This document shows positions 1,457-21,721 of a stretch of DNA of 21,721 nucleotides, piece after piece. Position 1 is the first letter of the stretch; each line of letters opens with the position of its first letter. Under the pieces are notes generated by a model. The model searched no databases. It saw nothing but the letters and a program-made list of their open reading frames with translations, and was not told the DNA's origin. This DNA comes from Naegleria gruberi (taxonomy: Eukaryota): the NCBI GenBank assembly GCA_000004985.1, contig GG738954.1; one strand, given 5' to 3'. Position numbers and translations under genes: made by a program.

Positions 1457-4400
1457 NNNNNNNNNNNNNNNNNNNNNNNNNNNNNNNNNNNNNNNNNNNN
1501 NNNNNNNNNNNNNNNNNNNNNNNNNNNNNNNNNNNNNNNNNNNNNNNNNNNNNNNNNNNNNNNNNNNNNNNNNNNNNNNNNNNNNNNNNNNNNNNNNNNN
1601 NNNNNNNNNNNNNNNNNNNNNNNNNNNNNNNNNNNNNNNNNNNNNNNNNNNNNNNNNNNNNNNNNNNNNNNNNNNNNNNNNNNNNNNNNNNNNNNNNNNN
1701 NNNNNNNNNNNNNNNNNNNNNNNNNNNNNNNNNNNNNNNNNNNNNNNNNNNNNNNNNNNNNNNNNNNNNNNNNNNNNNNNNNNNNNNNNNNNNNNNNNNN
1801 NNNNNNNNNNNNNNNNNNNNNNNNNNNNNNNNNNNNNNNNNNNNNNNNNNNNNNNNNNNNNNNNNNNNNNNNNNNNNNNNNNNNNNNNNNNNNNNNNNNN
1901 NNNNNNNNNNNNNNNNNNNNNNNNNNNNNNNNNNNNNNNNNNNNNNNNNNNNNNNNNNNNNNNNNNNNNNNNNNNNNNNNNNNNNNNNNNNNNNNNNNNN
2001 NNNNNNNNNNNNNNNNNNNNNNNNNNNNNNNNNNNNNNNNNNNNNNNNNNNNNNNNNNNNNNNNNNNNNNNNNNNNNNNNNNNNNNNNNNNNNNNNNNNN
2101 NNNNNNNNNNNNNNNNNNNNNNNNNNNNNNNNNNNNNNNNNNNNNNNNNNNNNNNNNNNNNNNNNNNNNNNNNNNNNNNNNNNNNNNNNNNNNNNNNNNN
2201 NNNNNNNNNNNNNNNNNNNNNNNNNNNNNNNNNNNNNNNNNNNNNNNNNNNNNNNNNNNNNNNNNNNNNNNNNNNNNNNNNNNNNNNNNNNNNNNNNNNN
2301 NNNNNNNNNNNNNNNNNNNNNNNNNNNNNNNNNNNNNNNNNNNNNNNNNNNNNNNNNNNNNNNNNNNNNNNNNNNNNNNNNNNNNNNNNNNNNNNNNNNN
2401 NNNNNNNNNNNNNNNNNNNNNNNNNNNNNNNNNNNNNNNNNNNNNNNNNNNNNNNNNNNNNNNNNNNNNNNNNNNNNNNNNNNNNNNNNNNNNNNNNNNN
2501 NNNNNNNNNNNNNNNNNNNNNNNNNNNNNNNNNNNNNNNNNNNNNNNNNNNNNNNNNNNNNNNNNNNNNNNNNNNNNNNNNNNNNNNNNNNNNNNNNNNN
2601 NNNNNNNNNNNNNNNNNNNNNNNNNNNNNNNNNNNNNNNNNNNNNNNNNNNNNNNNNNNNNNNNNNNNNNNNNNNNNNNNNNNNNNNNNNNNNNNNNNNN
2701 NNNNNNNNNNNNNNNNNNNNNNNNNNNNNNNNNNNNNNNNNNNNNNNNNNNNNNNNNNNNNNNNNNNNNNNNNNNNNNNNNNNNNNNNNNNNNNNNNNNN
2801 NNNNNNNNNNNNNNNNNNNNNNNNNNNNNNNNNNNNNNNNNNNNNNNNNNNNNNNNNNNNNNNNNNNNNNNNNNNNNNNNNNNNNNNNNNNNNNNNNNNN
2901 NNNNNNNNNNNNNNNNNNNNNNNNNNNNNNNNNNNNNNNNNNNNNNNNNNNNNNNNNNNNNNNNNNNNNNNNNNNNNNNNNNNNNNNNNNNNNNNNNNNN
3001 NNNNNNNNNNNNNNNNNNNNNNNNNNNNNNNNNNNNNNNNNNNNNNNNNNNNNNNNNNNNNNNNNNNNNNNNNNNNNNNNNNNNNNNNNNNNNNNNNNNN
3101 NNNNNNNNNNNNNNNNNNNNNNNNNNNNNNNNNNNNNNNNNNNNNNNNNNNNNNNNNNNNNNNNNNNNNNNNNNNNNNNNNNNNNNNNNNNNNNNNNNNN
3201 NNNNNNNNNNNNNNNNNNNNNNNNNNNNNNNNNNNNNNNNNNNNNNNNNNNNNNNNNNNNNNNNNNNNNNNNNNNNNNNNNNNNNNNNNNNNNNNNNNNN
3301 NNNNNNNNNNNNNNNNNNNNNNNNNNNNNNNNNNNNNNNNNNNNNNNNNNNNNNNNNNNNNNNNNNNNNNNNNNNNNNNNNNNNNNNNNNNNNNNNNNNN
3401 NNNNNNNNNNNNNNNNNNNNNNNNNNNNNNNNNNNNNNNNNNNNNNNNNNNNNNNNNNNNNNNNNNNNNNNNNNNNNNNNNNNNNNNNNNNNNNNNNNNN
3501 NNNNNNNNNNNNNNNNNNNNNNNNNNNNNNNNNNNNNNNNNNNNNNNNNNNNNNNNNNNNNNNNNNNNNNNNNNNNNNNNNNNNNNNNNNNNNNNNNNNN
3601 NNNNNNNNNNNNNNNNNNNNNNNNNNNNNNNNNNNNNNNNNNNNNNNNNNNNNNNNNNNNNNNNNNNNNNNNNNNNNNNNNNNNNNNNNNNNNNNNNNNN
3701 NNNNNNNNNNNNNNNNNNNNNNNNNNNNNNNNNNNNNNNNNNNNNNNNNNNNNNNNNNNNNNNNNNNNNNNNNNNNNNNNNNNNNNNNNNNNNNNNNNNN
3801 NNNNNNNNNNNNNNNNNNNNNNNNNNNNNNNNNNNNNNNNNNNNNNNNNNNNNNNNNNNNNNNNNNNNNNNNNNNNNNNNNNNNNNNNNNNNNNNNNNNN
3901 NNNNNNNNNNNNNNNNNNNNNNNNNNNNNNNNNNNNNNNNNNNNNNNNNNNNNNNNNNNNNNNNNNNNNNNNNNNNNNNNNNNNNNNNNNNNNNNNNNNN
4001 NNNNNNNNNNNNNNNNNNNNNNNNNNNNNNNNNNNNNNNNNNNNNNNNNNNNNNNNNNNNNNNNNNNNNNNNNNNNNNNNNNNNNNNNNNNNNNNNNNNN
4101 NNNNNNNNNNNNNNNNNNNNNNNNNNNNNNNNNNNNNNNNNNNNNNNNNNNNNNNNNNNNNNNNNNNNNNNNNNNNNNNNNNNNNNNNNNNNNNNNNNNN
4201 NNNNNNNNNNNNNNNNNNNNNNNNNNNNNNNNNNNNNNNNNNNNNNNNNNNNNNNNNNNNNNNNNNNNNNNNNNNNNNNNNNNNNNNNNNNNNNNNNNNN
4301 NNNNNNNNNNNNNNNNNNNNNNNNNNNNNNNNNNNNNNNNNNNNNNNNNNNNNNNNNNNNNNNNNNNNNNNNNNNNNNNNNNNNNNNNNNNNNNNNNNNN

Positions 4401-5267
4401 NNNNNNNNNNNNNNNNNNNNNNNNNNNNNNNNNNNNNNNNNNNNNNNNNNNNNNNNNNNNNNNNNNNNNNNNNNNNNNNNNNNNNNNNNNNNNNNNNNNN
4501 NNNNNNNNNNNNNNNNNNNNNNNNNNNNNNNNNNNNNNNNNNNNNNNNNNNNNNNNNNNNNNNNNNNNNNNNNNNNNNNNNNNNNNNNNNNNNNNNNNNN
4601 NNNNNNNNNNNNNNNNNNNNNNNNNNNNNNNNNNNNNNNNNNNNNNNNNNNNNNNNNNNNNNNNNNNNNNNNNNNNNNNNNNNNNNNNNNNNNNNNNNNN
4701 NNNNNNNNNNNNNNNNNNNNNNNNNNNNNNNNNNNNNNNNNNNNNNNNNNNNNNNNNNNNNNNNNNNNNNNNNNNNNNNNNNNNNNNNNNNNNNNNNNNN
4801 NNNNNNNNNNNNNNNNNNNNNNNNNNNNNNNNNNNNNNNNNNNNNNNNNNNNNNNNNNNNNNNNNNNNNNNNNNNNNNNNNNNNNNNNNNNNNNNNNNNN
4901 NNNNNNNNNNNNNNNNNNNNNNNNNNNNNNNNNNNNNNNNNNNNNNNNNNNNNNNNNNNNNNNNNNNNNNNNNNNNNNNNNNNNNNNNNNNNNNNNNNNN
5001 NNNNNNNNNNNNNNNNNNNNNNNNNNNNNNNNNNNNNNNNNNNNNNNNNNNNNNNNNNNNNNNNNNNNNNNNNNNNNNNNNNNNNNNNNNNNNNNNNNNN
5101 NNNNNNNNNNNNNNNNNNNNNNNNNNNNNNNNNNNNNNNNNNNNNNNNNNNNNNNNNNNNNNNNNNNNNNNNNNNNNNNNNNNNNNNNNNNNNNNNNNNN
5201 NNNNNNNNNNNNNNNNNNNNNNNNNNNNNNNNNNNNNNNNNNNNNNNNNNNNNNNNNNNNNNNNNNN
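1457..5267. other. assembly gap (3811 N)
   Basis: Continuous run of n. All four ORFs in the track running through it (1378..5514 and 1382..5329 on the minus strand, 1391..5272 and 1407..6146 on the plus strand) are artefacts of translating N as X. Confidence 1.
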
Positions 5268-6271: not shown

Positions 6272-7405
6272 CTAAAAATAATCATTTTGTTCTCTACTGT
6301 TTGAGTTAGAATCATCTTGTTCAAACAAAAAATCAAAGTCTGAATTAAGGGGAAAATTACCATTAGAACTTTCGTCTTGTTGATTGGGATCATATGCTAA
6401 TAGGTCAGTAATACATTCTTCGAACAATCTTTGAGGCGAAGAAATTAGATTTGGGAAGGAATTTGGACTTGGTGGTGCACTACTGGCAGCCATTTGAGAC
6501 ATGGCAGTTGGATACGTAGAATTCGGGATTCTTGGATCCATTAATGGGGTTGTTGGGATGAAATTTTGCATCACCGTATTGAAAGTTAGTGGTGTACTAG
6601 CAGATGGTGTCATTGGAACAAAGTTTTGCATTGGATTGACACTTGGTGGTGTAATAATATTAGGAACTAGTGGTGACAAAGAGTTTCCAGAAAGTGTTTG
6701 AGAATTATAAGATTGAATACTACCTGTATCATCACCAGAAGAGGAAGCTGCAACTACCTTCTTCTTTCTTGGTTTAGTCTTCTCACTGGTCTTTCTTTTA
6801 GTTCCAGATTTTGGCTCTTGATCTTCAATCATCGTTTCAGCAGAGGAACTAGAGGAAGCAGAAGCAGCAGCTCTCTTTCTAGGCTTTCTTTTCTTTCTGT
6901 TTGTTGTTACAGGTTCCAATCCACCATCAACATTAATTTCTTCTTCTTTTTCTTCTGACATTTCATCATCATCAGCAATCCATAGAGGTTCATCTTCACC
7001 ATTCAAATAGATGGCTTGAACCACTGATAAATTAGAATTATTCCTGACCACAGCCAGCCTTGTCTTCAACTTGATAACATGACCAAGGAGCACAATAATA
7101 ATATCACCCACTGCCTTTGTTGGGCACTTAACTTGACAAGCACCAAGTATCTTGGAAATTGTCATTTCAGCACGCATCTTGTTATCGCTAAAGTTGTTCT
7201 TCATCATGTACCAGCCTGATCTGTTTTGCAATGCATCAACCACAACCACTCTGATCTTGATGCCATCGAACAATTCCAATGAAACATGGGCCAATCCCTT
7301 CTTTCTAATAACAATTTTAAAAACAGGACGATGGGTAATTGGATCGTAAATAGTTTGTTCAAAGATTGGTTTATCAACGTTATTGACGTTATTGTTCTTG
7401 GTCAT
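6272..7405 (-). CDS. hypothetical nuclear protein, likely a transcription regulator: about 150-aa N-terminal globular domain of unrecognised family, an acidic stretch, two basic NLS-like clusters, an S/T/P-rich region with internal repeats, and an acidic/hydrophobic C-terminal tail.
   Basis: Intronless 377-aa ORF with ATG (complement of 7403..7405) and TAG stop (complement of 6272..6274). Features in the translation: basic clusters RKKRKPRKR and KRKTSEKTKPRKKK; a Ser run (AAASASSSSSA); a repeated motif MQNFVPMTPSASTP / MQNFIPTTPLMDP; and a C-terminal DFDFLFEQDD activation-domain-like tail. The plus-strand ORFs 6501..6701, 6698..6958 and 7152..7349 are antisense to this gene and are rejected. 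Confidence 0.7.
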   Translation of the reverse strand: MTKNNNVNNVDKPIFEQTIYDPITHRPVFKIVIRKKGLAHVSLELFDGIKIRVVVVDALQNRSGWYMMKNNFSDNKMRAEMTISKILGACQVKCPTKAVGDIIIVLLGHVIKLKTRLAVVRNNSNLSVVQAIYLNGEDEPLWIADDDEMSEEKEEEINVDGGLEPVTTNRKKRKPRKRAAASASSSSSAETMIEDQEPKSGTKRKTSEKTKPRKKKVVAASSSGDDTGSIQSYNSQTLSGNSLSPLVPNIITPPSVNPMQNFVPMTPSASTPLTFNTVMQNFIPTTPLMDPRIPNSTYPTAMSQMAASSAPPSPNSFPNLISSPQRLFEECITDLLAYDPNQQDESSNGNFPLNSDFDFLFEQDDSNSNSREQNDYF

Positions 7406-7676: not shown

Positions 7677-10405
7677 NNNNNNNNNNNNNNNNNNNNNNNN
7701 NNNNNNNNNNNNNNNNNNNNNNNNNNNNNNNNNNNNNNNNNNNNNNNNNNNNNNNNNNNNNNNNNNNNNNNNNNNNNNNNNNNNNNNNNNNNNNNNNNNN
7801 NNNNNNNNNNNNNNNNNNNNNNNNNNNNNNNNNNNNNNNNNNNNNNNNNNNNNNNNNNNNNNNNNNNNNNNNNNNNNNNNNNNNNNNNNNNNNNNNNNNN
7901 NNNNNNNNNNNNNNNNNNNNNNNNNNNNNNNNNNNNNNNNNNNNNNNNNNNNNNNNNNNNNNNNNNNNNNNNNNNNNNNNNNNNNNNNNNNNNNNNNNNN
8001 NNNNNNNNNNNNNNNNNNNNNNNNNNNNNNNNNNNNNNNNNNNNNNNNNNNNNNNNNNNNNNNNNNNNNNNNNNNNNNNNNNNNNNNNNNNNNNNNNNNN
8101 NNNNNNNNNNNNNNNNNNNNNNNNNNNNNNNNNNNNNNNNNNNNNNNNNNNNNNNNNNNNNNNNNNNNNNNNNNNNNNNNNNNNNNNNNNNNNNNNNNNN
8201 NNNNNNNNNNNNNNNNNNNNNNNNNNNNNNNNNNNNNNNNNNNNNNNNNNNNNNNNNNNNNNNNNNNNNNNNNNNNNNNNNNNNNNNNNNNNNNNNNNNN
8301 NNNNNNNNNNNNNNNNNNNNNNNNNNNNNNNNNNNNNNNNNNNNNNNNNNNNNNNNNNNNNNNNNNNNNNNNNNNNNNNNNNNNNNNNNNNNNNNNNNNN
8401 NNNNNNNNNNNNNNNNNNNNNNNNNNNNNNNNNNNNNNNNNNNNNNNNNNNNNNNNNNNNNNNNNNNNNNNNNNNNNNNNNNNNNNNNNNNNNNNNNNNN
8501 NNNNNNNNNNNNNNNNNNNNNNNNNNNNNNNNNNNNNNNNNNNNNNNNNNNNNNNNNNNNNNNNNNNNNNNNNNNNNNNNNNNNNNNNNNNNNNNNNNNN
8601 NNNNNNNNNNNNNNNNNNNNNNNNNNNNNNNNNNNNNNNNNNNNNNNNNNNNNNNNNNNNNNNNNNNNNNNNNNNNNNNNNNNNNNNNNNNNNNNNNNNN
8701 NNNNNNNNNNNNNNNNNNNNNNNNNNNNNNNNNNNNNNNNNNNNNNNNNNNNNNNNNNNNNNNNNNNNNNNNNNNNNNNNNNNNNNNNNNNNNNNNNNNN
8801 NNNNNNNNNNNNNNNNNNNNNNNNNNNNNNNNNNNNNNNNNNNNNNNNNNNNNNNNNNNNNNNNNNNNNNNNNNNNNNNNNNNNNNNNNNNNNNNNNNNN
8901 NNNNNNNNNNNNNNNNNNNNNNNNNNNNNNNNNNNNNNNNNNNNNNNNNNNNNNNNNNNNNNNNNNNNNNNNNNNNNNNNNNNNNNNNNNNNNNNNNNNN
9001 NNNNNNNNNNNNNNNNNNNNNNNNNNNNNNNNNNNNNNNNNNNNNNNNNNNNNNNNNNNNNNNNNNNNNNNNNNNNNNNNNNNNNNNNNNNNNNNNNNNN
9101 NNNNNNNNNNNNNNNNNNNNNNNNNNNNNNNNNNNNNNNNNNNNNNNNNNNNNNNNNNNNNNNNNNNNNNNNNNNNNNNNNNNNNNNNNNNNNNNNNNNN
9201 NNNNNNNNNNNNNNNNNNNNNNNNNNNNNNNNNNNNNNNNNNNNNNNNNNNNNNNNNNNNNNNNNNNNNNNNNNNNNNNNNNNNNNNNNNNNNNNNNNNN
9301 NNNNNNNNNNNNNNNNNNNNNNNNNNNNNNNNNNNNNNNNNNNNNNNNNNNNNNNNNNNNNNNNNNNNNNNNNNNNNNNNNNNNNNNNNNNNNNNNNNNN
9401 NNNNNNNNNNNNNNNNNNNNNNNNNNNNNNNNNNNNNNNNNNNNNNNNNNNNNNNNNNNNNNNNNNNNNNNNNNNNNNNNNNNNNNNNNNNNNNNNNNNN
9501 NNNNNNNNNNNNNNNNNNNNNNNNNNNNNNNNNNNNNNNNNNNNNNNNNNNNNNNNNNNNNNNNNNNNNNNNNNNNNNNNNNNNNNNNNNNNNNNNNNNN
9601 NNNNNNNNNNNNNNNNNNNNNNNNNNNNNNNNNNNNNNNNNNNNNNNNNNNNNNNNNNNNNNNNNNNNNNNNNNNNNNNNNNNNNNNNNNNNNNNNNNNN
9701 NNNNNNNNNNNNNNNNNNNNNNNNNNNNNNNNNNNNNNNNNNNNNNNNNNNNNNNNNNNNNNNNNNNNNNNNNNNNNNNNNNNNNNNNNNNNNNNNNNNN
9801 NNNNNNNNNNNNNNNNNNNNNNNNNNNNNNNNNNNNNNNNNNNNNNNNNNNNNNNNNNNNNNNNNNNNNNNNNNNNNNNNNNNNNNNNNNNNNNNNNNNN
9901 NNNNNNNNNNNNNNNNNNNNNNNNNNNNNNNNNNNNNNNNNNNNNNNNNNNNNNNNNNNNNNNNNNNNNNNNNNNNNNNNNNNNNNNNNNNNNNNNNNNN
10001 NNNNNNNNNNNNNNNNNNNNNNNNNNNNNNNNNNNNNNNNNNNNNNNNNNNNNNNNNNNNNNNNNNNNNNNNNNNNNNNNNNNNNNNNNNNNNNNNNNNN
10101 NNNNNNNNNNNNNNNNNNNNNNNNNNNNNNNNNNNNNNNNNNNNNNNNNNNNNNNNNNNNNNNNNNNNNNNNNNNNNNNNNNNNNNNNNNNNNNNNNNNN
10201 NNNNNNNNNNNNNNNNNNNNNNNNNNNNNNNNNNNNNNNNNNNNNNNNNNNNNNNNNNNNNNNNNNNNNNNNNNNNNNNNNNNNNNNNNNNNNNNNNNNN
10301 NNNNNNNNNNNNNNNNNNNNNNNNNNNNNNNNNNNNNNNNNNNNNNNNNNNNNNNNNNNNNNNNNNNNNNNNNNNNNNNNNNNNNNNNNNNNNNNNNNNN
10401 NNNNN
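7677..10405. other. assembly gap (2729 N)
   Basis: Continuous run of n. All three minus-strand gap ORFs are artefacts. Of the two plus-strand gap ORFs, only the real-sequence tail of 7644..10478 (10406 onward) is retained; 7618..10413 is an artefact. Confidence 1.
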
Positions 10406-10627
10406 GGAATTGATGAAGGAAATTGATGACGATCAAAATGGATTGATAACATTTGATGGTAAGTTTACACTGCTCTAGTACAATATCTTTGCTAACACCA
10501 TATTTAAAATTAACACATTGTTCCTATCTACCCTAACCAACATTCACATGAAATAACAACTTTCATCTCTTTTGAACAACATCAAACAGAATTCAAGGAA
10601 GCTATGGCTGGTTGGATGCTCCAATAA
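10406..10627 (+). CDS. 3' end of an EF-hand calcium-binding protein gene (calmodulin/centrin-like superfamily). Exons 10406..10458 and 10590..10627; the 5' part is in the gap. Deduced C-terminus: ELMKEIDDDQNGLITFDEFKEAMAGWMLQ*.
   Basis: After the gap, the open frame encodes EIDDDQNGLITFDG. This matches the EF-hand loop consensus D-x-D-x-[DN]-G-x-I-x-x-x-E except that position 12 is interrupted by GTAAGT at 10459. Splicing to the acceptor ...tcaaacAG|aa at 10588/10590 builds the codon G+AA = Glu, giving DDDQNGLITFDEF, a canonical loop plus exiting helix. The frame then runs 11 more codons to TAA at 10625..10627. Confidence 0.5.
10459..10589 (+). other. spliceosomal intron (131 nt, GTAAGT...AACAG), phase 1, splitting the invariant Glu codon of an EF-hand loop
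   Basis: GGTAAGT donor at 10458..10464, a ctaacac branch-point-like motif at about 10493..10499, and an AG at 10588..10589. This acceptor is the only one that restores an EF-hand-compatible residue; the alternative AG at 10477..10478 gives V-Q-Y-L-C-stop. Confidence 0.45.
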
Positions 10628-11331
10628 ATTTTTTAAAAATCTTTTATTTTGGCGCTCTTGAAATTTACTGTTCTTTCAATATTGTGTGATGATTTGTTCT
10701 TTTGCTTCGGAATTACAAGACAGCAACAAATTTGTTGGGATTGATCAAAATCGTTACTTTCCACAATTTATCTTTTGAAAAAAATTTAAAGTTTTCAATA
10801 TTTATTTAAATATTAAAAAAATATAACAATGAAGGAGGCAAGTGAAGAAGAGACTGTTCTTTGTGAACATGATCTCGATTATAATTGATTAGCAGTATTA
10901 GTATTATTCATGATCAAATGTAACAAAAATAGTTCATATGAACGACGGAAGGCTCTAATTTCTGCATGATTTGTTTTAAAAGCAATCAAACTATGATGAT
11001 GTTTATCAAAGTAGACATTTTGATAAATATTAGGCGTGCCAAGAACATTTGGATAGATTCGATCAACAATCTTCATCGTGATTCGAATTACTTTTGTAGT
11101 TATTACATTAAGGAATCATCGCTTTAGTATTTCAATCTCACTGAATGTCTTTAAAGTACTAAAACCAAAAACATCATCACTTCTCATATCTACTTGGATT
11201 GGCCGAAGTTTGGAAATATTACATGTTTCATACAACACATGTGGTTCACATCTTCTCCTGGCAAAACCTATCAAAAACTACAATGCCAATGCTGTTGGCA
11301 TGAATATAATTTATTCAACAACAAGAAAAGA

Positions 11332-14300
11332 ATGGAATCAACATTAGGCAGAAGATCATCTATTTCCACCTCTTCATCAGATGGTGGTTCTTCAATAACT
11401 TCTGCCTCTTTTGCCAGCTCCTTATTCAAAACCTTTAATGAATATCTATCAATGATGTATTTATGTAGCAAGATGAGGATGAACACCCTCACAAGGTTTA
11501 GCAACAGTAAAGGCAGCTATGTAGAAGGTTTGCCTGTAACAGTCCCTTGGAAGATACGACTGGCTAGATTGGCTATATCGTTATGGTTTTTATACATGTT
11601 GTGGATTGGAATTTGGTTACCTGCATTGACTTCTCATCAGGAGTATTCTAGTATACTTTCATCTAATAGTACCATAAATAATGAATATAATACTTCACCG
11701 TTTGGATTTGAAGGAGGATGGGTATTTAGAGTATTGAACTATCCACTCACTTTATCAACAGATGCCATTCCTTATGAGGGAATAATTGCACTTTCTGTCA
11801 TATTTACATTGATTTCATTGGTGAATATTATCTTGATGATTATTGGAATGAAGAAGAGATGTGAAGGAATTTACAAAATATTTGACAAGGTTGGGATGTA
11901 TTGTTCATTAGTAGTATCGTTTATTGGACCAGTTGCCTTATTTATTATGAGCAGTTTTGTTGATTGTAATCCAAATATTCAAATCAATGTCGAAGATCAG
12001 ACAGCAAGTGTTTCTGGATTGTCAAGATTTCCATCAGTTCAATGTTATTCTAAAACAAATACTATTTTAATTGTCATGAGTTTGATTGGAATGATGATTA
12101 CATTTGTGAGTTGGAGTTTCTCTGTGTTTTTATTGCCAATCAATACACCCAATGTTGGAATTCCTTTTGTGACGAAGGATAACTTTATATTGGCACCAAC
12201 TATTTGCACGATAGGATTCGAATTGTTAATCATATTCTTGATTCCACCGAATTACATGATGGGGAGAGCGATAGTTCATCTCATTTTGAGCATTTATCAA
12301 CATTCCACTCATCATTTACAGTTTACCATTTTATCATCGAATGATGAATTCACTCTATTTTGGAGTTGTTTGTGCAAGATTTGGAGTTAGTATTGGATTT
12401 TTGATTAGTTCATTGGTCAATTTAAATCTTTTGAGTGATTTGGGACTTGGAATGATGGGATTGAGTATTGGATTGGGAATTCTATTTTTCATTCTTGCTT
12501 TTACTGCTTTGGAAATTTACACAAGGTTGTGCTGCAGGCGAATTAGAAACATCTTTTCAAGAAAGATATCAGAATCCACAATCACTAACAGCAAGCAAGA
12601 CATCAACCTTTACTCAATAGTAGAAAAGGAAGCTCTTTCAATCTTTACTCTTTGTGAGCATGTTTCATCCAGAAGTTTGACTCTATTCTTGCAATCTACT
12701 GTTTGCCTAAAAGAACAAAACGGGTATAAGGAGGATGATGAATATATAGCACTGGACGATAAGTTGTTGGCAATATCCTTTGTCAAGTCTATTTCGCAAC
12801 AAAAATCTTTCGTCAATGCAGACATGTTGATAATTTCCGGAATGCTTATTAACTTTAATAGCAAAGAGGACAACAAGTATCAATTCGCCAGTTATCTTCT
12901 AGCAAAAGCATACAAACGAACCTCCAACACTATCAAGAAGTTAATCGTTTTAGAAAAACAAAAAGAAATTGAGATTGATTTGAATGAAGTGACCAAAACA
13001 AATATTGAAGTCAGAAATGCAATCACAGAGGTGGCTAAAAAGTTGGAAGAATTACGTATTGTTCATAGATCATTCTGGAAGGAAATGCTTAATGAAATGC
13101 CAAACGAAACCAAACTTTTACAAATTAATAGTAAGGCAACCGTATTATCCAAATTTTGTGAAAAATCCTTTTCCAACTTGATGAAGTCTCATAATCATGA
13201 CAAGACAGTAATCAGATTCTATGCAAAATATGTGGAGGAATTCAAGTTTGATAAGGAATTGTCGAATTCATTGTTTGAAGAAGCTAACCAGTTGGAAGAC
13301 GAAGAATCCAGATCAAGAAAGTATTCAATAATGAAATTACAACCAAATGAAACAAAGAAATTCAAAAATAAGGTAGCTCCATCATCTCCAAATTTAATGG
13401 ATGATATGAGTGTTACTGGAAGAGAAACCATGTTCGATTCTATGGGATCGCTCAGCATGAAAAAATTCTCTAATCAGCCAACTAACAATCCATTAAATGA
13501 GACAGATTTTGAAGGAGTAGAAAATGAAGGTATTGACAAGAAGGAATCATTTTTCAGAGCTGCCATCAATACTCCATTTCAATCAAAGTTGAAAATATCC
13601 ATCTTCCTTGGCCTTTCAGTGCTATTACATATTTGTATGATTGCAATATTTGTGCTAAGTATGGTATTTAGTGAAAAAGTTGTTTCTACTCCTCTTGTAT
13701 TGCAGAGTTGCATTACAGGCTCAACACCTGGCGCCTTGTTGAGATTTACGAGAATGAATCAAATTTTGACTGAGGTTTACGCAAATGAAGGACAACCTTG
13801 GTTACAGAACTCTACCAGGTATTACGAAATTAATAACTTTTTGAAAAATTACAAGAATAGATATTTGGAGCATAAGGGGTATTTGGAAACATTAATTTCC
13901 AATTCACAATCAGGAAAGTTTACAAGTAACATGTATACTGACTTTACAGAGAGAGCAAGTCCAATTTTAATTCCAATTTCAACAACAGACCCTAAATCTA
14001 TTGAATTTGTAAATACCTTCTCAAAGAATGTTTCAATGAGTGAAGTTTCTCAAGAATTCTTGCATCATGTTGAACAATTTTTGAACTTTGGAGAAAAGCA
14101 ATACAATGAAACAACAAAAAGTTACAGTTTCATGTATGTCTACTTGAATAGAAGATATTTAGCCGATAATTATCTCCAATTCTGTAGATCATTCCAGGAG
14201 AGCGAAAGAGCTAGTACTTTTGAACTGAATATCATACTCTCGAGCTATATTTTTGCTTCTTCTTCCGTAATGACGATGATTTACGTTATTTTCATTTTGA

Positions 14301-14887
14301 TTTCAAGGAGTGAGATGACTTGGTTCAGTAAGATCACATCTCTTTACAAGAAAATTCCAAAAGATTTTGTTGGAATAATTTATCACAAATTGGAAGAAAA
14401 GACAAAAGATGATGCCAAACATTTGAAGAAAAATCCTCTCTTGCAACCAAAAAATTTTACTTTAATACTGGCTATTTTGATAGTTGTAATATTCATGTTG
14501 TCTTCTGGTTTGATTTATTATGAAATTTCAATGAATATTTCAACTGCATCATCTGCCATTTACAATGTTGATTTGATGAGCGTCTTTTTGAGAACAGTTC
14601 ATAGAGTTACTATTAGATTAAATGAATTCTTCATTTATCTTACCCTGCCTTCTGGAAAATTCATTAACAGTCCATATTTAGTTTCGAATAATTCACAATT
14701 GCAAACAATGAAAACAGAAATCAGACAATTCATTGATTTGACTGCAACCATTTATGATCAGGTTATTTATGGCCAAGATGGAGTTACTTCTTCTCTTGTT
14801 GGGCAATATTCTGAAATTGACAAGATGATAACAGGTCAGTCCACATGCAGCAATTCCACAATTGATTACGAAATTAGCAATAATGGA
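11332..14887 (+). pseudogene. copy 1 of the giant membrane-sensor adenylyl-cyclase paralog family (8-TM N-terminal block, coiled coil, TM-bracketed loops). A +1 frameshift (extra g at about 12294) splits the reading frame: 11332..12390 in frame 1, then 12341..14887 in frame 2. The 3' end (PAS and cyclase) is missing at the 14888..15050 gap. Either a pseudogene or a sequencing error.
   Basis: The ATG at 11332 sits in an aaaag-aATGGA context like the copy-3 start. The N-terminal TM block from 11693 onward is about 93-95% identical at nucleotide level to copy 3 (20137 onward). At 12281..12300, copy 1 reads catctcattttgaGcatttatc where copy 3 reads catctcattttgacatttatc; one extra base shifts the frame and gives a stop at 12388..12390. 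The downstream frame (12341..14887) is collinear with copy 2 (15058..17589). The frame-1 ORF extension back to 11194 is not conserved in copy 3 and is taken to be 5' UTR. Confidence 0.6.
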
Positions 14888-15050
14888 NNNNNNNNNNNNN
14901 NNNNNNNNNNNNNNNNNNNNNNNNNNNNNNNNNNNNNNNNNNNNNNNNNNNNNNNNNNNNNNNNNNNNNNNNNNNNNNNNNNNNNNNNNNNNNNNNNNNN
15001 NNNNNNNNNNNNNNNNNNNNNNNNNNNNNNNNNNNNNNNNNNNNNNNNNN
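14888..15050. other. assembly gap (163 N) joining non-collinear parts of two paralogs
   Basis: Upstream of the gap, copy 1 ends at the position equivalent to copy 2 nt 17589 (the ...IDYEISNNG loop). Downstream, sequence resumes at the position equivalent to copy 1 nt 12338 / copy 3 nt 20778 (the ...YHRMMNSLYF junction). About 1.6 kb of copy 1 (its 3' part) plus an intergenic region plus about 1.1 kb of copy 2 (its 5' part) are unaccounted for. Confidence 1.
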
Positions 15051-18000
15051 TCATCGAATGATGAATTCACTCTATTTTGGAATTGTTTGTGCAAGATTTG
15101 GAGTGAGTATTGGATTTTTGATTAGCTCATTAGTCAATTTAAATCTTTTGAGTGATTTGGGTCTTGGAATGATGGGATTGAGTATTGGATTGGGAATTCT
15201 ATTTTTCATTCTTGCTTTTACTGCTTTGGAAATTTACACACTCGTAGTTTGCAGACAAATAAGAAATATTTTCAAAACCAAGATTAGTGCCTGTGAAATA
15301 AATGAGAGCAGAGCAGATTTATCACTTTACAACATTATTGAAAGAGAGGCAGTTTCCATTTTCATTGTTTGTGAACAATTATCTCTAAGACACTTGATGT
15401 TGTTTTTACAATTTTCAATTGGGCAAAATGTGAAACATCACTCCCCCGATCATTACGGTGTGACTATTGTCAGTGATCCATTAATGGCTATTGCTTTTGT
15501 GAAATCCATTTCTCAGCAGAAATCCTTCCTTAATACTGAAATGTTGCTCATTTCAAGTGTTTTGGTCAATTACATTTGGCAAGATGATCACAGATCTCAA
15601 TTTGCAAATTATCTACTGGCAAAGGCTCTTAAACATTGTCATCAAACGTTAAAGAGAGTTCTTATCACTGAAAAACAAAAAGAAATTGAAATTACACTTA
15701 ACGAGCTAACCAAGACAAATATGGAAGTAAGAAACACAATTACAGAATTAGAAATTACCCTTGCTGAGCTTCGAATTGTTCATAAATCATTCTGGAAGGA
15801 AATGTTGAACGATATTCCAAACGAAACCAAACTTTCACAAATTAATAGCAGAGCTTCTGTCCTAACACTATTCTGTGACCAGAATTTCCTCAATCTTACC
15901 AAAGCTCACAGTCATGATAAGACAGTGATTCGTTTTTATGCATCCTACCTTGAGGAATTCAAATTCGATAAGGAACTATCTACTTCATTGTTTGAAGAAG
16001 CTGCTGCAATGGAAGAAGAAGAATCGAGATCAAAGAATGTCAATCATCACAATCCACAATCATATTACGAAGCAAAGAAATTCAAGAATAAGATTGTGCC
16101 CTCATCCAATGTGGAAATGTCCACCAATAATGAAGATATTAGTACTGAAAGAGATGAAAGTGGTTCAGCCCTAAATGGAAAAAGTCAATTCAATGGGAAT
16201 GAGATGGATTTCGAAGGTGTCGAAAATCAAGGAATTGACAAGAAGGAAACCTTCTTCAGAACTGCCATCAATGCTCCATTCCAATCCAAACTGAGAATCT
16301 CGATCTTTCTATTCTTGTCAGTTTTGATGCATGTCTTGTTAATTGTCATTTTCATTCTGAGTATTGTTTATAATGAGAGAGTTGTTTCTACTCCTCTTGT
16401 ATTGCAGAGTTGCATTCCTGGTTCAACACCTGGTGCATTACTAAGAGTTGCAAGAATGAATCAAATTTTGACTGAGGTTTACGCAAATGAAGGACAATCA
16501 TGGTTAAAGAACTCGAGTAGAATGTATGAATTGAATTATTTCACATCAACCTTCAGAAATCGATATTTGGAGCATAAGGGGTATTTGGAAACATTAATTT
16601 CCAATTCACAATCAGGTAAATTTACAAGTAACATGTATAATGACTTTACAGAGAGAGCAAGTCCAATTTTAATTCCAATTTCAACAACAGATCCTAAATC
16701 GATTGAATTTGTAAACACCTTCTCAAAGAATGTTTCAATGAGTGAAGTTTCTCAAGAATTCTTGCATCATGTTGAGCAATTTTTGAACTTTGGAGAAAAG
16801 CAATACAATGAAACAACAAAGAGTTACAGTTTCATGTACATTTATTTAAATAGAAGATATTTAGCCGATAATTATCTCCAATTCTGCAAGTCATTCCAGG
16901 AAAGCGAAAGAGCCAACACTCACCAGTTGAATATTATTTTACTGGCCTATATTTTCACATCCTCCTCAGTAATGACGATGATTTACGTTATTTTCATTTT
17001 GATTTCAAGGAGTGAGATGACATGGTTCAGTAAGATCACATCTCTTTACAAGAAAATTCCAAAAGATTTTGTTGGAATAATTTATCACAAATTAGAAGAA
17101 AAGACAAAAGATGATGCCAAGCACTTGAAGAAAAATCCTCTCTTGCAACCAAAGGCCTTTTCTCTGATATTGGCACTTCTAATTGTGACAGTTTTCATGT
17201 TGTCTTCTGGTTTGATTTATTATGAAATTTCAATGAATATTTCAACTGCTTCATCTGCCATTTACAATGTTGATTTGCTGAGTGTATTTTTGAGAACAGT
17301 TCATAGAGTTACCATTAGACTGAATGAATTGTTTATTTACTTGTCATTGCCATCTGGAAAATTCATTAACAGTCCATATTTAGTTTCGAATAATTCACAA
17401 TTGCAAACAATGAAAACAGAAATCAGACAATTCATTGATTTGACAGCAACCATTTATGATCAGGTTATTTATGGACAAGATGGAATAACAACACCACTCG
17501 TTGGAAAATACTCCAAATTAGATAAGATTATTACTGGTCTATCGACTTGCACCAATTCCTCAATTGACTATAATTGGAAATCTAATGGAAACAAAATTAT
17601 TGGACAAAGTAATGAATTGTTAAAAGATTGTTATGGTCTTCAAAAGTACATGTCTACATTCACAATTCTTGCAGGACAAGTGAGTGAAAAGTTCTTCAAT
17701 CCTTCCTATGCTTCGACACAATCTGAAGAAGCATTCGCAGAATTGTTAACATTATTTAATATGTGTGATATGGTTTATGACAAGTTTAGAGATTTTCTCA
17801 CAACATTGGTCAGTTTGACATCTGTTCCTTCCATTACAATTTCAATTGTCTTGATTTTCGGTATAACTTCAATGCTCATATTACAATATATGATTTTCAT
17901 CAGTTTCCAAACCTATGATCACGAAATAACCAATATGAAAGCATTCTTGAATTATCTGTCCACAGAATTCATAGAATCAAATGATGGACTCAAGAGTTTT

Positions 18001-19206
18001 GCCTTGTACAACTCTATTGGAACGAACTATTTGACTGGACGAAAGCTAAAACAATCCTCAGCTACAGATCAAGATTCTTTGAAGAAATTAATGAGTTCAA
18101 TGGTAGATGGTGCACTATTAGCAAACGAAAGTGGAGATATCATTCTTTTCAACGGACCAGCTCAGAACATGTTCGGAAAGTCAATTTCTGATGTTCTGGG
18201 AACAAACTTTATGCATTTATTTGATGAGCACTCTGGTGAAAAGTTGTCCAACATTTTGAAAACAATCAAGAGTGAAATTGATGAAAATGTCAAACATGGA
18301 GATGTTATTGAATTGGAATGTGTTAGAAAGAATTCCACAAAGTTTCCAGCCATGGTTACTATCTTTGTTTCGAGAATTTCTGGCAGCTCTTACAAGGGAA
18401 AGAGTAACTCAATGGTTGTTTCATGCTTTATGAGAGATATCACTCCAGAGAAGAAGCAAAATTCACTTCTAGCAGAGGAGAAGAAAAATTCAGAAAATTT
18501 ATTGAGAAACATCTTGCCAGATGCTGTTGCAAGCAAGTTGAAATCAGGTGAGACATTTATTGCTGAGAGATTTAGTGATATTACTTGTTTCTTTAGTGAT
18601 ATGGTTGGTTTTACGAAAATGTCAAGTGGAATGAATCCAAGTGAATTGGTTTTGATGTTGTCATCAATTGTGAATGGATTTGATGATTTGACAGATGTTT
18701 ATTCATTGGAAAAGATCAAGACAATTGGTGATGCTTATTTTTGTGTTGGAGGTTTACATAATAATCCACAATCTGATCATCCTGAAAGAACATTGAGATT
18801 TGCAATTGATACATTTCAAGTGATTAGAAATTATAATATTGAACATCCTCAAAATCAATTGAATATTCGAGTTGGAATCAATACAGGATCAGTTGTTGCT
18901 GGTGTAATTGGAAAGAAGAAGTTTGCCTATGATTTATGGGGTGATACCATCAATACTGCTTCTCGAATGGAATCAACTTCAATGGCAGGAAGAATTCAAA
19001 TTTCCAGATCAACCTATCAGAGAGTCTATGATATTGGATTTGAATTTGAACAGAGAAGTGTTGAAGTGAAAGGAAAAGGTGTTTGTGAAACCTATTTATT
19101 GAAGGATAAACATCATGCAACGTCAATAATTCCAGTAACAGAATCACAAATTCTCAAGAAGGAACAAAGCAACGAAGAAAAATTAAGCGAACAATTAGAT
19201 CAATAA
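15051..19206 (+). CDS. copy 2: membrane-sensor adenylyl cyclase, 5'-truncated by the gap (open frame from 15052; first in-frame ATG at 15058; 1382 codons to TAA at 19204..19206). Order of parts: TM pair, coiled coil, TM, about 180-aa loop, TM, TM, about 190-aa loop, TM, PAS, class III cyclase domain.
   Basis: A single uninterrupted 4.1-kb ORF. Hydrophobic helices at about 15058..15250, 16290..16380, 16925..17010, 17160..17230 and 17800..17900. Heptad-rich segment EKQKEIEITLNELTKTNMEVRNTITELEITLAELRIVHKSF at about 15660..15790. C-terminal cyclase motifs: FFSDMVGFT (metal-binding Asp), KIKTIGDAYFCVGGL (second metal Asp plus specificity Lys), YDLWGDTINTASRMEST (specificity Asp, and the Asn/Arg transition-state pair). 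Confidence 0.85.
18080..18440 (+). other. PAS sensor domain within copy 2
   Basis: LKKLMSSMVDGALLANESGDIILFNGPAQNMFGKSISDVLGTNFMHLFDE...GDVIELECVRKNSTKFPAMVTIFVSR. The PAS-like core pattern is hydrophobic - N - x - A - x - x - hydrophobic - hydrophobic - G, followed by a beta-rich segment, placed between the last TM helix and the cyclase domain. Confidence 0.55.
18550..19100 (+). other. class III nucleotidyl cyclase catalytic domain (CYC/CHD), with residues predicting adenylyl cyclase specificity and homodimeric function
   Basis: Both metal-binding Asp residues are present (FSDMVGF and IGDAY). The base-specifying pair is Lys (KIKTIGD) and Asp (YDLWG), not the Glu/Cys pair of guanylyl cyclases. 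The Asn (TINTA) and Arg (SRME) transition-state residues are also present. Having every catalytic residue in one domain is typical of cyclases that act as homodimers. Confidence 0.9.
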
Positions 19207-19703
19207 AATGCCAGGTTTTGAGATAATGGTGGGCTTAGAATTTAACGAAAATGGTTTGCCTTCTTGATGTGTTTTGAAGCTGAATTAGGTTAAATGTTAT
19301 TACCGAGAGTCGTTTTACTTAGTTACACATGCAGCTGAGATTCATCGGTGGTGCTGGCATCGGTAGAGTCTTTCATTAAATTTGAAGTGGTTGACTTTTC
19401 ATTAGAAATATTTGCGATGAGATGGAAAAATGATTGATGTTGAGGTGAAAATTTATGTCATGGCTTCTCGAAATCTACAACCACATAGCTTGGATCCTCA
19501 TCCTAAAACAAATCTTGACCCAAATAAGTAACAATCTCTACAGCTCTTGCACATCCCAAAAACAGACCTGCGCCACAAAATTTTCTTTTTTTTACCCAAA
19601 TTTCCTTAATAATGCCTCAACAACCTCCACAAATTACAGTTGCAAAAATGGCGCTCTTTTTCGCTAAGGCAATTAGTCATTTAAAACCAACCTTAGAAAA
19701 AAA

Positions 19704-21721
19704 ATGGAGCCATCATCGATAGGGGGAGGATCATCAGTTTCAGGCTCCACACAAACATCCAATGCCTCTTCAAGTTCCTTGTCTGGAAACATCTTTAGAA
19801 CAGTTAATGAATTTCTCACAAATTTGTACATGTCGGGAAAGTTGAGAATGAATGGTTTAACGAGACAATATACATCAATGAATAGCAGTTTGTTAGGTGC
19901 TGGTGTTTCTAGTGCTGGATTTTATGAGAGCTTTAATAGGAAACCTTCGTGGAATGTAAGGTTGTGCAGAGGTTTACTGTTTGTCTGGTTTTTGTATATC
20001 ATGTGGATTGGAGTGTGGTTACCTGGATTAACTTCTCATCAGGATTATTCACAAATATATTCTTCATCATCTTCTGTTTCATCATCAAGCAATTCAGGAA
20101 ATCAAACGAGTAGTATAGTAAATAATGAATTTAACACTTCACCGTTTGGATTTGAAGGAGGATGGGTATTTAGAGTATTGAATTATCCACTCACTTTATC
20201 AACAGATGCCATTCCTTATGAGGGAATAATTGCCTTGTCTGTCCTATTTACATTGATTTCATTGGTGAATATTATCTTGATGATTATTGGAATGAAGAAG
20301 AGATATGGAAATGTTTACAAATTCTTGGATAAAGTGGCGATGTGTTGGGGAATGATTGTATTATTCAGTGGACCAGTTGCCTTGTTTATTATGAGCAGTT
20401 TTATTGATTGTAATCCAAATATTAGGATTGAAATTGAGAATCAGACAGCAAGTGTTTCTGGATTGTCAAGATTTCCAACAGTTCAGTGCTATTCAGCTGA
20501 TAATATAGTATTACTAGTTCTGAGTTTGATTGGAATGATGATTACATTTGTGAGTTGGGGTTTCTCTGTGTTTTTATTGCCAATCAATACACCCAATGTT
20601 GGAATTCCTTTTGTGACGAAGGATAACTTTATATTGGCACCAACCATTTGCACGATAGGATTGGAATTGTTAATCATGTTCTTGATTCCACCGAATTTCA
20701 TGATGGGGAGAGCGATTGTTCATCTCATTTTGACATTTATCAACATTCCACTCATCATTTACAGTTTACCATTTTATCATCGAATGATGAATTCACTCTA
20801 TTTTGGAATTGTTTGTGCAAGATTTGGAGTGAGTATTGGAGTATTGATTAGCTCATTGGTCAATTTAAATCTGTTGAGTGATTTGGGACTTGGAATGATG
20901 GGATTGAGTATTGGATTGGGAATTCTATTTTTCATTCTTGCTTTTACTGCTTTGGAGATTTACACGCTCGTTGTTTGCAGACAAATAAGAAATATTTTCA
21001 AAACCAAGATTAGTGCCTGTGAAATAACTGAGAGCAGAGCAGATTTATCCCTGTACAACATTATTGAAAGAGAGGCAGTTTCCATTTTCATTGTTTGTGA
21101 ACAATTATCTCTGAGACACTTGATGTTGTTTTTACAATTTTCAATTGGGAAAAATGTGAAACATCACTCCCCCGATCATTACGGTGTGACTATTGTCAGT
21201 GATCCATTGATGGCTATTGCTTTTGTGAAATCCATTTCTCAGCAGAAATCCTTCCTTAATACTGAAATGTTGCTCATTTCAAGTGTTTTGGTCAACTACA
21301 TTTGGCAAGATGATCACAGATCTCAATTTGCAAATTATCTACTAGCAAAGGCTCTTAAACATTGTCATCAAACTTTAAAGAGAGTTCTTATCACTGAAAA
21401 ACAAAAAGAAATTGAAATTACACTCAACGAGCTAACCAAGACAAATATGGAAGTAAGAAACACAATTACAGAATTAGAAATAACCCTTGCTGAGCTTCGA
21501 ATTGTTCATAAATCATTCTGGAAGGAAATGTTGAACGATATTCCAAACGAAACCAAACTTTCACAAATTAATAGCAGAGCTTCTGTCCTAACACTATTCT
21601 GTGACCAGAATTTCCTCAATCTTACCAAAGCTCACAGTCACGATAAGACAGTGATACGTTTTTATGCGTCCTACCTTGAGGAATTCAAATTCGATAAGGA
21701 ACTATCTACTTCATTGTTTGA
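19704..21721 (+). CDS. copy 3: membrane-sensor adenylyl cyclase paralog, 5' complete (ATG 19704..19706), open to the window end (3' partial). N-terminal Ser-rich segment, then the 8-TM block, then the start of the coiled-coil region.
   Basis: Translated codon by codon from 19704 to 21721 in frame (positions divisible by 3) with no stop. It is missing from the supplied ORF track, apparently because that track requires a terminal stop. About 97-98% nucleotide identity to copy 2 over 20785..21721 versus 15058..15994 (about 22 mismatches in about 940 nt). N-terminal TM block 93-95% identical to copy 1. ORF 20648..20851 (+) and ORF 20489..20701 (-) are off-frame or antisense and are rejected. Confidence 0.8.
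   Translation, partial: MEPSSIGGGSSVSGSTQTSNASSSSLSGNIFRTVNEFLTNLYMSGKLRMNGLTRQYTSMNSSLLGAGVSSAGFYESFNRKPSWNVRLCRGLLFVWFLYIMWIGVWLPGLTSHQDYSQIYSSSSSVSSSSNSGNQTSSIVNNEFNTSPFGFEGGWVFRVLNYPLTLSTDAIPYEGIIALSVLFTLISLVNIILMIIGMKKRYGNVYKFLDKVAMCWGMIVLFSGPVALFIMSSFIDCNPNIRIEIENQTASVSGLSRFPTVQCYSADNIVLLVLSLIGMMITFVSWGFSVFLLPINTPNVGIPFVTKDNFILAPTICTIGLELLIMFLIPPNFMMGRAIVHLILTFINIPLIIYSLPFYHRMMNSLYFGIVCARFGVSIGVLISSLVNLNLLSDLGLGMMGLSIGLGILFFILAFTALEIYTLVVCRQIRNIFKTKISACEITESRADLSLYNIIEREAVSIFIVCEQLSLRHLMLFLQFSIGKNVKHHSPDHYGVTIVSDPLMAIAFVKSISQQKSFLNTEMLLISSVLVNYIWQDDHRSQFANYLLAKALKHCHQTLKRVLITEKQKEIEITLNELTKTNMEVRNTITELEITLAELRIVHKSFWKEMLNDIPNETKLSQINSRASVLTLFCDQNFLNLTKAHSHDKTVIRFYASYLEEFKFDKELSTSLF

What the first reader, a model, noticed from the sequence alone, without database searches (positions are those of the whole stretch)
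14860..15130. Gap 14888..15050 joins the body of copy 1 to the middle of copy 2: probable collapsed tandem repeat or chimeric assembly
Sequence before the gap corresponds to the second sensor loop of the protein (...STIDYEISNNG, which matches copy 2 position 17589). Sequence after the gap starts at the N-terminal-TM / body junction (tcatcgaatgatgaattcactc, which matches copy 1 position 12338 and copy 3 position 20778). About 1.6 kb of copy 1 (PAS plus cyclase), an intergenic region and about 1.1 kb of copy 2 (promoter, Ser-rich N-terminus and most of the TM block) cannot fit in a nominal 163-N gap. Either the gap is much larger than annotated, the assembler mis-joined near-identical repeat units, or the locus carries a genuine chimeric or truncated paralog. 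Copy number and copy order in the array are therefore uncertain.
Basis: seen in the sequence. Interest (0 to 1): 0.55.

Follow-up and report, generated by a model that had tools for sequence, protein, structure and literature searches.

The report
Undersized assembly gap in cyclase array
The 163-N run is a scaffold gap in a small, gap-ridden draft scaffold of the amoeba Naegleria gruberi; it hides about 3.2 kb of a tandem array of membrane adenylyl-cyclase genes, and the public annotation has fused two neighbouring genes across it into one false 2187-residue protein, so it is an assembly and annotation artefact rather than new biology.

Summary
The window is a complete 21,721-bp Naegleria gruberi scaffold that is 31% N, in three gaps. 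It carries three head-to-tail copies of a gene of about 1,700 codons: N-terminal TM block, TmcB-type TPR, two loop regions, PAS, class III cyclase.

Copy 1 stops at 14887 in the second loop. After 163 N the sequence resumes at 15051, inside the N-terminal TM block of copy 2. The contiguous copy 2 to copy 3 junction gives a ruler of 1617 + 497 + 1073 = 3187 bp, which should lie where 163 N are written.

The deposited model XP_002668778.1 (2187 aa) bridges the gap with a chance GT-AG "intron" at 14835-15133 and fuses the two bodies. A 98% identical intact gene, XP_002674019.1 (1740 aa), lies two accession numbers from a 99% identical copy of the window's C2/C92 gene on a 508-kb scaffold. The window therefore looks like a near-duplicate, haplotig-like assembly of that locus.

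Blocks of 96-98% identity, including synonymous sites, point to gene conversion. This is the likely cause of the assembly failure.

A genuine truncated chimera is unlikely but is not excluded without reads. Interest is low.

The parts
11332..12291 (+). Copy 1, N-terminal part: Ser-rich start and the first six hydrophobic segments. Left unannotated in the public record.
   Evidence: ATG at 11332. 98.4% identical to P0001 aa 1-320 in frame 1.
12287..12294 (+). One-base frameshift site in copy 1. It reads GAGCATTT where copy 3 has GACATTT. It separates the N-terminal part (frame 1) from the body (frame 2).
   Evidence: tblastn switches frame at 12290/12291. Whether it is a real mutation or a consensus error is not known.
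12290..14887 (+). Copy 1 body: last TM segments of the N-terminal block, TmcB-type TPR region, first loop, and part of the second loop. It ends at the contig end.
   Evidence: 74% aa identity to P0001 aa 320-1180. 78% DNA identity to copy 2, varying from 43 to 98% per 100 columns.
14888..15050 (.). Scaffold gap, 163 N. The expected content is about 3.1-3.2 kb or more.
14835..15133 (+). Artefactual 299-bp GT-AG 'intron' of the deposited model XP_002668778.1 / NAEGRDRAFT_76300. It bridges the gap and fuses copy 1 to copy 2.
   Evidence: P0010 aa 1-830 map to 12344-14833 and aa 831-2187 map to 15133-19203, both at 100%. GT/AG ends and the split codon GTC were checked.
15051..19206 (+). Copy 2, from the seventh hydrophobic segment of the N-terminal block to its stop codon: TPR_TmcB, two loops, PAS, class III cyclase. 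Its first roughly 335 codons lie in the gap.
   Evidence: ORF 15058-19206, 1382 aa. Pfam domains. 97.9% identity to P0001 aa 335-1710.
19207..19703 (.). Spacer between copy 2 and copy 3, contiguous sequence with no N.
19704..21721 (+). Copy 3: an uninterrupted reading frame from its ATG through the N-terminal TM block into the body, cut off by the end of the scaffold. Deposited as the partial model XP_002668779.1.
   Evidence: 97.7% DNA identity to copy 2 over 20777-21721.
15051..15290 (+). Block in which all three copies are nearly identical (equivalent to 12334-12573 and 20777-21016). The post-gap contig starts inside it.
   Evidence: Alignment A1. 96% and 91% identity in the first two 100-column windows, copy 1 vs copy 2.
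1457..5267 (.). Gap 1, 3811 N. It is also bridged by a fused gene model, XP_002668777.1.
7677..10405 (.). Gap 2, 2729 N.

Best explanation
The N run is an ordinary scaffold gap in the draft N. gruberi assembly, and its nominal size is far too small.

The locus is a head-to-tail array of paralogous genes for a multi-pass membrane, PAS-containing class III cyclase that is adenylyl-cyclase-like. The contig on the left ends in the second loop region of copy 1. The contig on the right begins in the N-terminal TM block of the next copy.

At least about 3.1-3.2 kb is missing: the PAS and cyclase end of copy 1, a spacer of about 0.5 kb, and about 1.0-1.07 kb of the copy 2 N-terminus. Further 5.7-kb units may be missing as well.

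The likely cause (inferred) is that tracts of near identity between copies, made by gene conversion, stopped contig extension and confused mate-pair gap sizing.

The gene predictor then bridged the gap with a chance GT-AG pair. This created the deposited 2187-aa fusion protein, which is not a real protein.
For: Shown:
- The window is a whole 21,721-bp N. gruberi scaffold with three N runs totalling 6703 N.
- The flanks are out of register. The copy 1 to copy 2 offset is 2717 bp, against a 5726-bp unit measured on the contiguous copy 2 to copy 3 sequence. The expected fill is 3187 bp.
- P0010 is copy 1 body plus copy 2, joined by a 299-bp GT-AG intron that contains the gap.
- A second gap in the same scaffold gives a second fused model. 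P0012 joins 73-789 to 5331-6143, and the C2 domain seen in P0011 is missing.
- Intact units exist. Copy 3 reads through from its ATG into the body. P0001 (1740 aa) has an N-terminus 98.4% identical to that of copy 1 and a body 97.9% identical to copy 2. The N. lovaniensis orthologue is collinear from aa 53 onwards.
- The C2/C92 flank gene has a 99% identical copy, EFC41277.1. It lies two accessions from P0001 (EFC41275.1) on the same 508,457-bp scaffold.
- The post-gap contig starts in a three-way near-identical block.
- Among conserved residues, codon identity is 0.87-0.95 in the high-identity blocks and 0.38 in the divergent blocks. This indicates gene conversion rather than selection alone.
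Against: No reads, mate pairs or long-read assembly could be consulted, so neither the true gap length nor the adjacency of the two contigs is shown.

The left contig ends in copy-1-specific sequence: the last 100 bp are only about 70% identical to copy 2. Its end is therefore not explained by a repeat boundary.

A mis-sizing of about 3 kb is large for paired-end gap estimates.

P0001 joins a copy-1-type N-terminus directly to a copy-2-type body. The related locus on the 508-kb scaffold may therefore really differ in structure.
Confidence: 0.8

Rival explanations
1. The gap size is about right and the locus really holds a 3'-truncated copy 1 followed, after about 160 bp, by a 5'-truncated copy 2. 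This would be a genuine rearranged or decaying pair of paralogues.
For: Copy 1 already carries a one-base frameshift at about 12290, which would fit a decaying gene. The left contig ends in copy-specific sequence rather than repeat sequence. The assembler did estimate 163 bp.
Against: The junction is out of register: the second loop is joined to TM segment 7. Unequal crossing-over between tandem copies gives in-register hybrids instead. With 163 N the two frames do not connect; they are frame 2 and frame 1. The break coincides exactly with a contig boundary in a scaffold that has two other large gaps. Copy 2 is otherwise an intact 1382-codon frame, 98% identical to an intact 1740-aa gene.
Confidence: 0.07
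2. The two contigs are wrongly scaffolded. Contig 10406-14887 and contig 15051-21721 are not neighbours, or they are separated by one or more further whole units, or they come from different haplotypes or duplicated loci.
For: The window is a near-duplicate of a locus on a 508-kb scaffold, where a copy-1-type N-terminus is joined directly to a copy-2-type body in P0001. P0001 is equally distant from copy 2 and copy 3, with 5 and 4 differences in 314 aa. Its C-terminal 30 residues are encoded nowhere in the window. At least one more sequence variant of this gene therefore exists. Near-identical tracts could misplace mates.
Against: Orientation and order are what a simple tandem array predicts. 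Tandem arrangement is directly shown for copies 2 and 3 in contiguous sequence. Nothing in the window contradicts adjacency.
Confidence: 0.13

Closest known systems
Under-sized or collapsed scaffold gaps in tandem gene arrays of draft shotgun assemblies, with gene models fused across the gap
   Same: There is a run of N between contigs. The flanks correspond to different positions of a repeating unit. Near-identical tracts exist between units. The predictor invents an intron across the gap.
   Different: Nothing unusual. The only open point is how much is missing, which cannot be measured here.
XP_002674019.1 / NAEGRDRAFT_71008 (P0001), a 1740-aa predicted protein on a 508-kb N. gruberi scaffold
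   Same: 98.4% identical to the copy 1 N-terminus and 97.9% identical to the copy 2 body. Same domain order. It has a 99% identical C2/C92 neighbour gene.
   Different: It is one uninterrupted gene that combines a copy-1-type N-terminus with a copy-2/3-type body. Its last 30 residues have no counterpart in the window. The window shows at least three copies; only P0001 was retrieved from the 508-kb scaffold, and the retrieval tool is not exhaustive.
Class III adenylyl cyclases with PAS sensor domains (Pfam PF00211 with PF13426/PF00989). The closest solved catalytic domains are mammalian AC9, AC8 and AC5.
   Same: The cyclase domain scores 192 bits and PAS_9 scores 55 bits. The best solved relatives are AC9 (E 7e-67) and AC8. 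The motifs FSDMVGF, KIKTIGDAY, YDLWGDTINTASRM are present. From general knowledge of class III cyclases, these carry the metal-binding Asp residues, the Lys/Asp adenine-specifying pair and the Asn/Arg pair.
   Different: There is a single catalytic domain per chain, so a homodimer is implied, unlike the C1/C2 pseudo-heterodimer of mammalian enzymes. The membrane part is quite different: a block of about 8 TM segments, then a TPR region, then two loops of about 190-200 aa each, bounded by hydrophobic segments.
TmcB/TmcC proteins (Pfam PF25474, TPR_TmcB)
   Same: The TPR_TmcB domain is matched at 50 bits against a cut-off of 27. N. fowleri relatives are named TmcB/TmcC TPR repeat proteins.
   Different: Here the TPR region is embedded in a cyclase. 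No functional link was tested.

Membership tests
Assembly gap with wrong nominal size in a tandem array | The run of N lies between contigs in the deposited record and is not a later mask | tested here: met
   163 N. The deposited models P0010 and P0012 jump over N runs.
Assembly gap with wrong nominal size in a tandem array | The flanks map to non-adjacent positions of the repeat unit, and the missing stretch exceeds the nominal gap | tested here: met
   14887 corresponds to 17589, and 15051 corresponds to 12334 and 20777. 3187 bp are expected against 163 N.
Assembly gap with wrong nominal size in a tandem array | Near-identical tracts between units that can stop or mislead assembly | tested here: met
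   Blocks of 96-98% identity. Three-way near identity at the start of the right contig. The left contig end is copy-specific, so this holds for one side only.
Assembly gap with wrong nominal size in a tandem array | Excess read depth on collapsed segments, inconsistent mate pairs, and spanning long reads longer than the gap | not testable with these tools
   No reads are available, and N. gruberi DNA is absent from the contig look-up.
Genuine hybrid gene from unequal crossing-over | In-register junction between homologous positions of two copies, giving a continuous frame | tested here: not met
   The junction joins loop 2 of one copy to TM segment 7 of the next. The frames differ.
Class III nucleotidyl cyclase (PF00211) | The catalytic domain scores above the Pfam gathering score | tested here: met
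   192.4 bits against a cut-off of 21.9, covering profile positions 3-182 of 183.
Class III nucleotidyl cyclase (PF00211) | Catalytic and adenine-specifying residues are present | tested here: met
   Alignment to AC9 C1 and C2 shows conserved FSDMVGF, KTIGDAY and YDLWGDTINTASRM. The assignment of residue roles rests on general knowledge of the family.
Class III nucleotidyl cyclase (PF00211) | cAMP or cGMP synthesis | not testable with these tools
   This needs an enzyme assay.
PAS-domain sensor proteins | The PAS domain scores above the gathering score | tested here: met
   PAS_9 scores 55.3 bits against 27, and PAS scores 32 bits against 22.6.

The most novel reading that the evidence does not exclude
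The 21.7-kb scaffold and the 508-kb scaffold could be two real haplotypes, or recent duplicates, that differ in copy number of this sensor-cyclase array. P0001 would then be a natural in-register hybrid of a copy-1-type N-terminus and a copy-2-type body, produced by unequal crossing-over. Under this reading, gene conversion is actively shuffling the loop-coding segments among copies, and the array is a rapidly diversifying receptor repertoire in Naegleria.
Probability: 0.2. Interest if true: 0.35.

Novelty: not a real feature. Interest (0 to 1): 0.12.

Why it matters
The value is mainly practical.

Two public N. gruberi proteins from this scaffold are fusions made across assembly gaps:
- XP_002668778.1 / D2W4G8 (2187 aa)
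- XP_002668777.1 / D2W4G6 (494 aa)

They should not be used as evidence for domain architectures. The first shows a duplicated TPR/loop body, and the second lacks its C2 domain.

Counts of cyclase genes in this genome are uncertain at this locus.

The biology underneath is ordinary for this organism: a tandem array of PAS-cyclase receptor genes with gene-conversion tracts.

Tried and rejected
- Fetching the 508-kb scaffold or the window's own record by exact protein look-up failed four times. N. gruberi appears not to be in that collection, so no dot-plot against the main scaffold was possible.

- The genome paper and a review of it are not held. Literature searches found no mention of either protein and nothing on this scaffold.

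- I looked for the C-terminal tail of P0001 in the window and found only noise.

- I tested whether the first contig (1-1456) or the region upstream of copy 1 holds another cyclase fragment. It does not.

- I tried to use SNP patterns in the first 240 bp after the gap to decide whether the hidden copy 2 N-terminus is copy-1-like or copy-3-like. The pattern is mixed and uninformative.

- The third homologue search, with copy 1 body as query, returned only the copy 3 partial model and missed P0001 and P0010. I therefore do not treat the absence of a copy-1-type gene elsewhere as evidence.

- I considered explaining the figure 163 by misplaced mates of a 3-kb library. Simple arithmetic gives negative gaps rather than a small positive one, so I dropped that argument.

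- There are no tRNAs and no relevant tandem repeats in the window.
Full report
**What is in the sequence.**

The window has three N runs: 1457-5267 (3811 N), 7677-10405 (2729 N) and 14888-15050 (163 N). Together they make up 6703 of 21,721 bases.

The bases before the third run encode ...STIDYEISNNG. The bases after it begin tcatcgaatgatgaattcactc.

Self-BLASTN finds three related units on the + strand:
- 12334-14887 aligns with 15051-17589 at 78% identity.
- 15051-15995 aligns with 20777-21721 at 97.7%.
- 11584-13278 aligns with 19986-21721 at 77%.

The left flank of the gap corresponds to copy 2 position 17589. The right flank corresponds to copy 1 position 12334 and copy 3 position 20777.

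**Where the window comes from.**

The 1382-codon frame 15058-19206 has TPR_TmcB, PAS and a class III cyclase domain. Its closest database relative is a Naegleria gruberi protein.

The 90% cluster of that protein has two members:
- P0001 (XP_002674019.1, NAEGRDRAFT_71008, 1740 aa), on a 508,457-bp scaffold.
- P0010 (XP_002668778.1, NAEGRDRAFT_76300, 2187 aa), on a contig of exactly 21,721 bp.

The window is therefore a complete small scaffold of the public N. gruberi assembly. It carries four deposited models, EFC36033 to EFC36036.

**What the annotation did with the gap.**

P0010 maps at 100% identity as aa 1-830 to 12344-14833 and aa 831-2187 to 15133-19203. The two parts are joined by a 299-bp "intron", 14835-15133, with GT and AG ends and a split GTC codon. 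The whole N run lies inside this intron.

The 2187-aa protein is thus the body of copy 1 fused to nearly all of copy 2. It contains the TPR and loop regions twice.

The same thing happened at gap 1. P0012 (494 aa) joins a multi-TM fragment at 73-789 to 5331-6143. Its 99% identical relative P0011 has a C2 domain in that place.

This also shows that the N runs belong to the deposited record.

**What an intact unit looks like.**

Copy 3 is an uninterrupted frame from its ATG at 19704, through the N-terminal TM block, into the body, until the scaffold ends.

P0001 shows the following order of features (hydropathy scan; domains):
- a Ser-rich start
- about eight hydrophobic segments between aa 80 and 404
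- the TPR region
- a hydrophobic segment at 752-770
- a loop of about 190 aa
- hydrophobic segments at 960-986 and 1038-1056
- a second loop of about 200 aa
- a hydrophobic segment at 1253-1284
- PAS, then cyclase

The N. lovaniensis orthologue is collinear with P0001 from aa 53 onwards, so the N-terminal block is an integral part of the gene.

In these terms the left contig ends in the second loop of copy 1. The right contig begins at about aa 335, before the last two segments of the N-terminal block.

**How much is missing.**

Copy 2 and copy 3 are joined by contiguous sequence, which provides a ruler:
- 17590-19206, the end of the gene: 1617 bp
- 19207-19703, the spacer: 497 bp
- 19704-20776, the N-terminal part: 1073 bp

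The sum is 3187 bp. With a copy-1-type N-terminus of 1002 bp the figure would be about 3.1 kb.

The unit length is 5726 bp, but the copy 1 to copy 2 offset in the scaffold is only 2717 bp. A 163-bp gap cannot hold this. Whole extra units could be hidden as well.

**Why the assembly probably failed here (inference).**

Identity between copy 1 and copy 2 varies from 43% to 98% per 100 columns.

Among residues that are conserved, the fraction of identical codons is 0.87-0.95 in the high-identity blocks and about 0.38 in the divergent blocks. The high-identity blocks are therefore recent gene-conversion tracts, not just constrained protein sequence.

The right contig starts inside one such block, where all three copies are nearly identical for about 240 bp.

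P0001 combines an N-terminus 98.4% identical to that of copy 1 with a body 97.9% identical to copy 2. This suggests that the hidden N-terminus of copy 2 is nearly the same as that of copy 1. That is exactly the situation in which reads are pooled and contigs break.

The one-base frameshift in copy 1 lies in this same conserved block. It reads GAGCATTT, against GACATTT in copy 3 and an inferred GAGCTTT for the Ser-Phe of P0001. It could be a consensus built from two kinds of reads. That is a guess and needs the traces.

One point does not fit neatly. The left contig ends in copy-specific sequence.

**Relation to the 508-kb scaffold.**

The window's C2/C92 peptidase-like gene fragment (5268-6143) is 99% identical to P0011 = EFC41277.1 (NAEGRDRAFT_71011). 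P0011 lies on the same 508-kb scaffold as P0001 = EFC41275.1 (NAEGRDRAFT_71008), two accession numbers away.

The window is therefore a near-duplicate of that locus. It is most simply a second-haplotype or leftover scaffold.

P0001 is equally distant from copy 2 and copy 3, with 5 and 4 differences in 314 residues. Its last 30 residues are encoded nowhere in the window.

I could not read the DNA of the large scaffold. I therefore cannot say whether it really has one hybrid gene, an unannotated array, or its own collapse. The protein search tool is not exhaustive, since it missed P0001. I draw nothing from the absence of further copies.

**Rivals.**

A genuine truncated pair with about 160 bp between them is unlikely. 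The junction is out of register, the frames do not connect, and the break sits exactly on a contig boundary of a poor scaffold. I give it about 0.07.

The two contigs may not be direct neighbours, or more units may lie between them. This cannot be excluded, and I give it about 0.13.

The main explanation is an undersized gap at a unit boundary, with an artefactual fused model. I give it about 0.8.

**The genes themselves.**

The catalytic domain is closest to mammalian AC9, AC8 and AC5 among solved structures. It keeps the motifs that, from general knowledge of class III cyclases, carry the metal-binding aspartates, the Lys/Asp pair for adenine, and the Asn/Arg pair.

With one catalytic domain per chain the enzyme should act as a homodimer. 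A PAS domain lies upstream, and a large membrane and loop portion is the likely sensor. This is inference from domain content and nothing was tested.

Cyclase-rich signalling repertoires are noted for heteroloboseans (PMC11589745).

**Verdict.**

The feature is an assembly gap plus an annotation artefact, not a biological novelty, and interest is low.

The useful outcome is a warning about two fused public protein models and an uncertain copy number at this locus.

Noticed in passing
window 73-789, gap 1457-5267, and 5331-6143: The deposited model XP_002668777.1 (NAEGRDRAFT_76298, 494 aa) is a second fusion across a gap. It joins a multi-TM fragment to the C-terminal papain-like (C92) part of a C2-domain protein. 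The 99% identical P0011 on the 508-kb scaffold has a C2 domain where the gap lies.
   Followed up: yes
window 12287-12294: A one-base frameshift separates the copy 1 N-terminal part (frame 1) from its body (frame 2). It reads GAGCATTT, and copy 3 reads GACATTT. Because of it, the N-terminal 320 codons of copy 1 (11332-12291) are unannotated. It may be a real pseudogene mutation or a consensus error from pooled repeat reads.
   Followed up: partly
window 12334-14887 compared with 15051-17589: Identity between copies 1 and 2 is a mosaic, from 43% to 98% per 100 columns. Synonymous sites are also identical in the high-identity blocks, for example around 13919-14158 and 14279-14398. This points to repeated gene conversion within the array.
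   Followed up: yes
P0001 aa 1711-1740, relative to window 19180-19206: The intact relative on the 508-kb scaffold has a different, Gln-rich C-terminal tail that is encoded nowhere in the window. Similarity to copy 2 stops right after ...KDKHHA. This may be another copy type or a modelled splice.
   Followed up: partly
window about 14780-14887 and 17480-17620 (second loop): The stretch just before the gap is the most variable part of the second loop. Copies 1 and 2 diverge there, and the N. lovaniensis orthologue lacks about 44 residues at this exact place.
   Followed up: no
window 21721 (scaffold end): The scaffold ends inside copy 3, at a position equivalent to 15995 of copy 2. The array therefore runs off the assembly, and its total copy number is unknown.
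   Followed up: no
window 6275-7405, minus strand: A 377-aa acidic, Ser/Pro-rich protein (XP_002668780.1, NAEGRDRAFT_54609) gives only weak low-complexity Pfam matches. Its 90% cluster has no partner from the 508-kb scaffold.
   Followed up: partly
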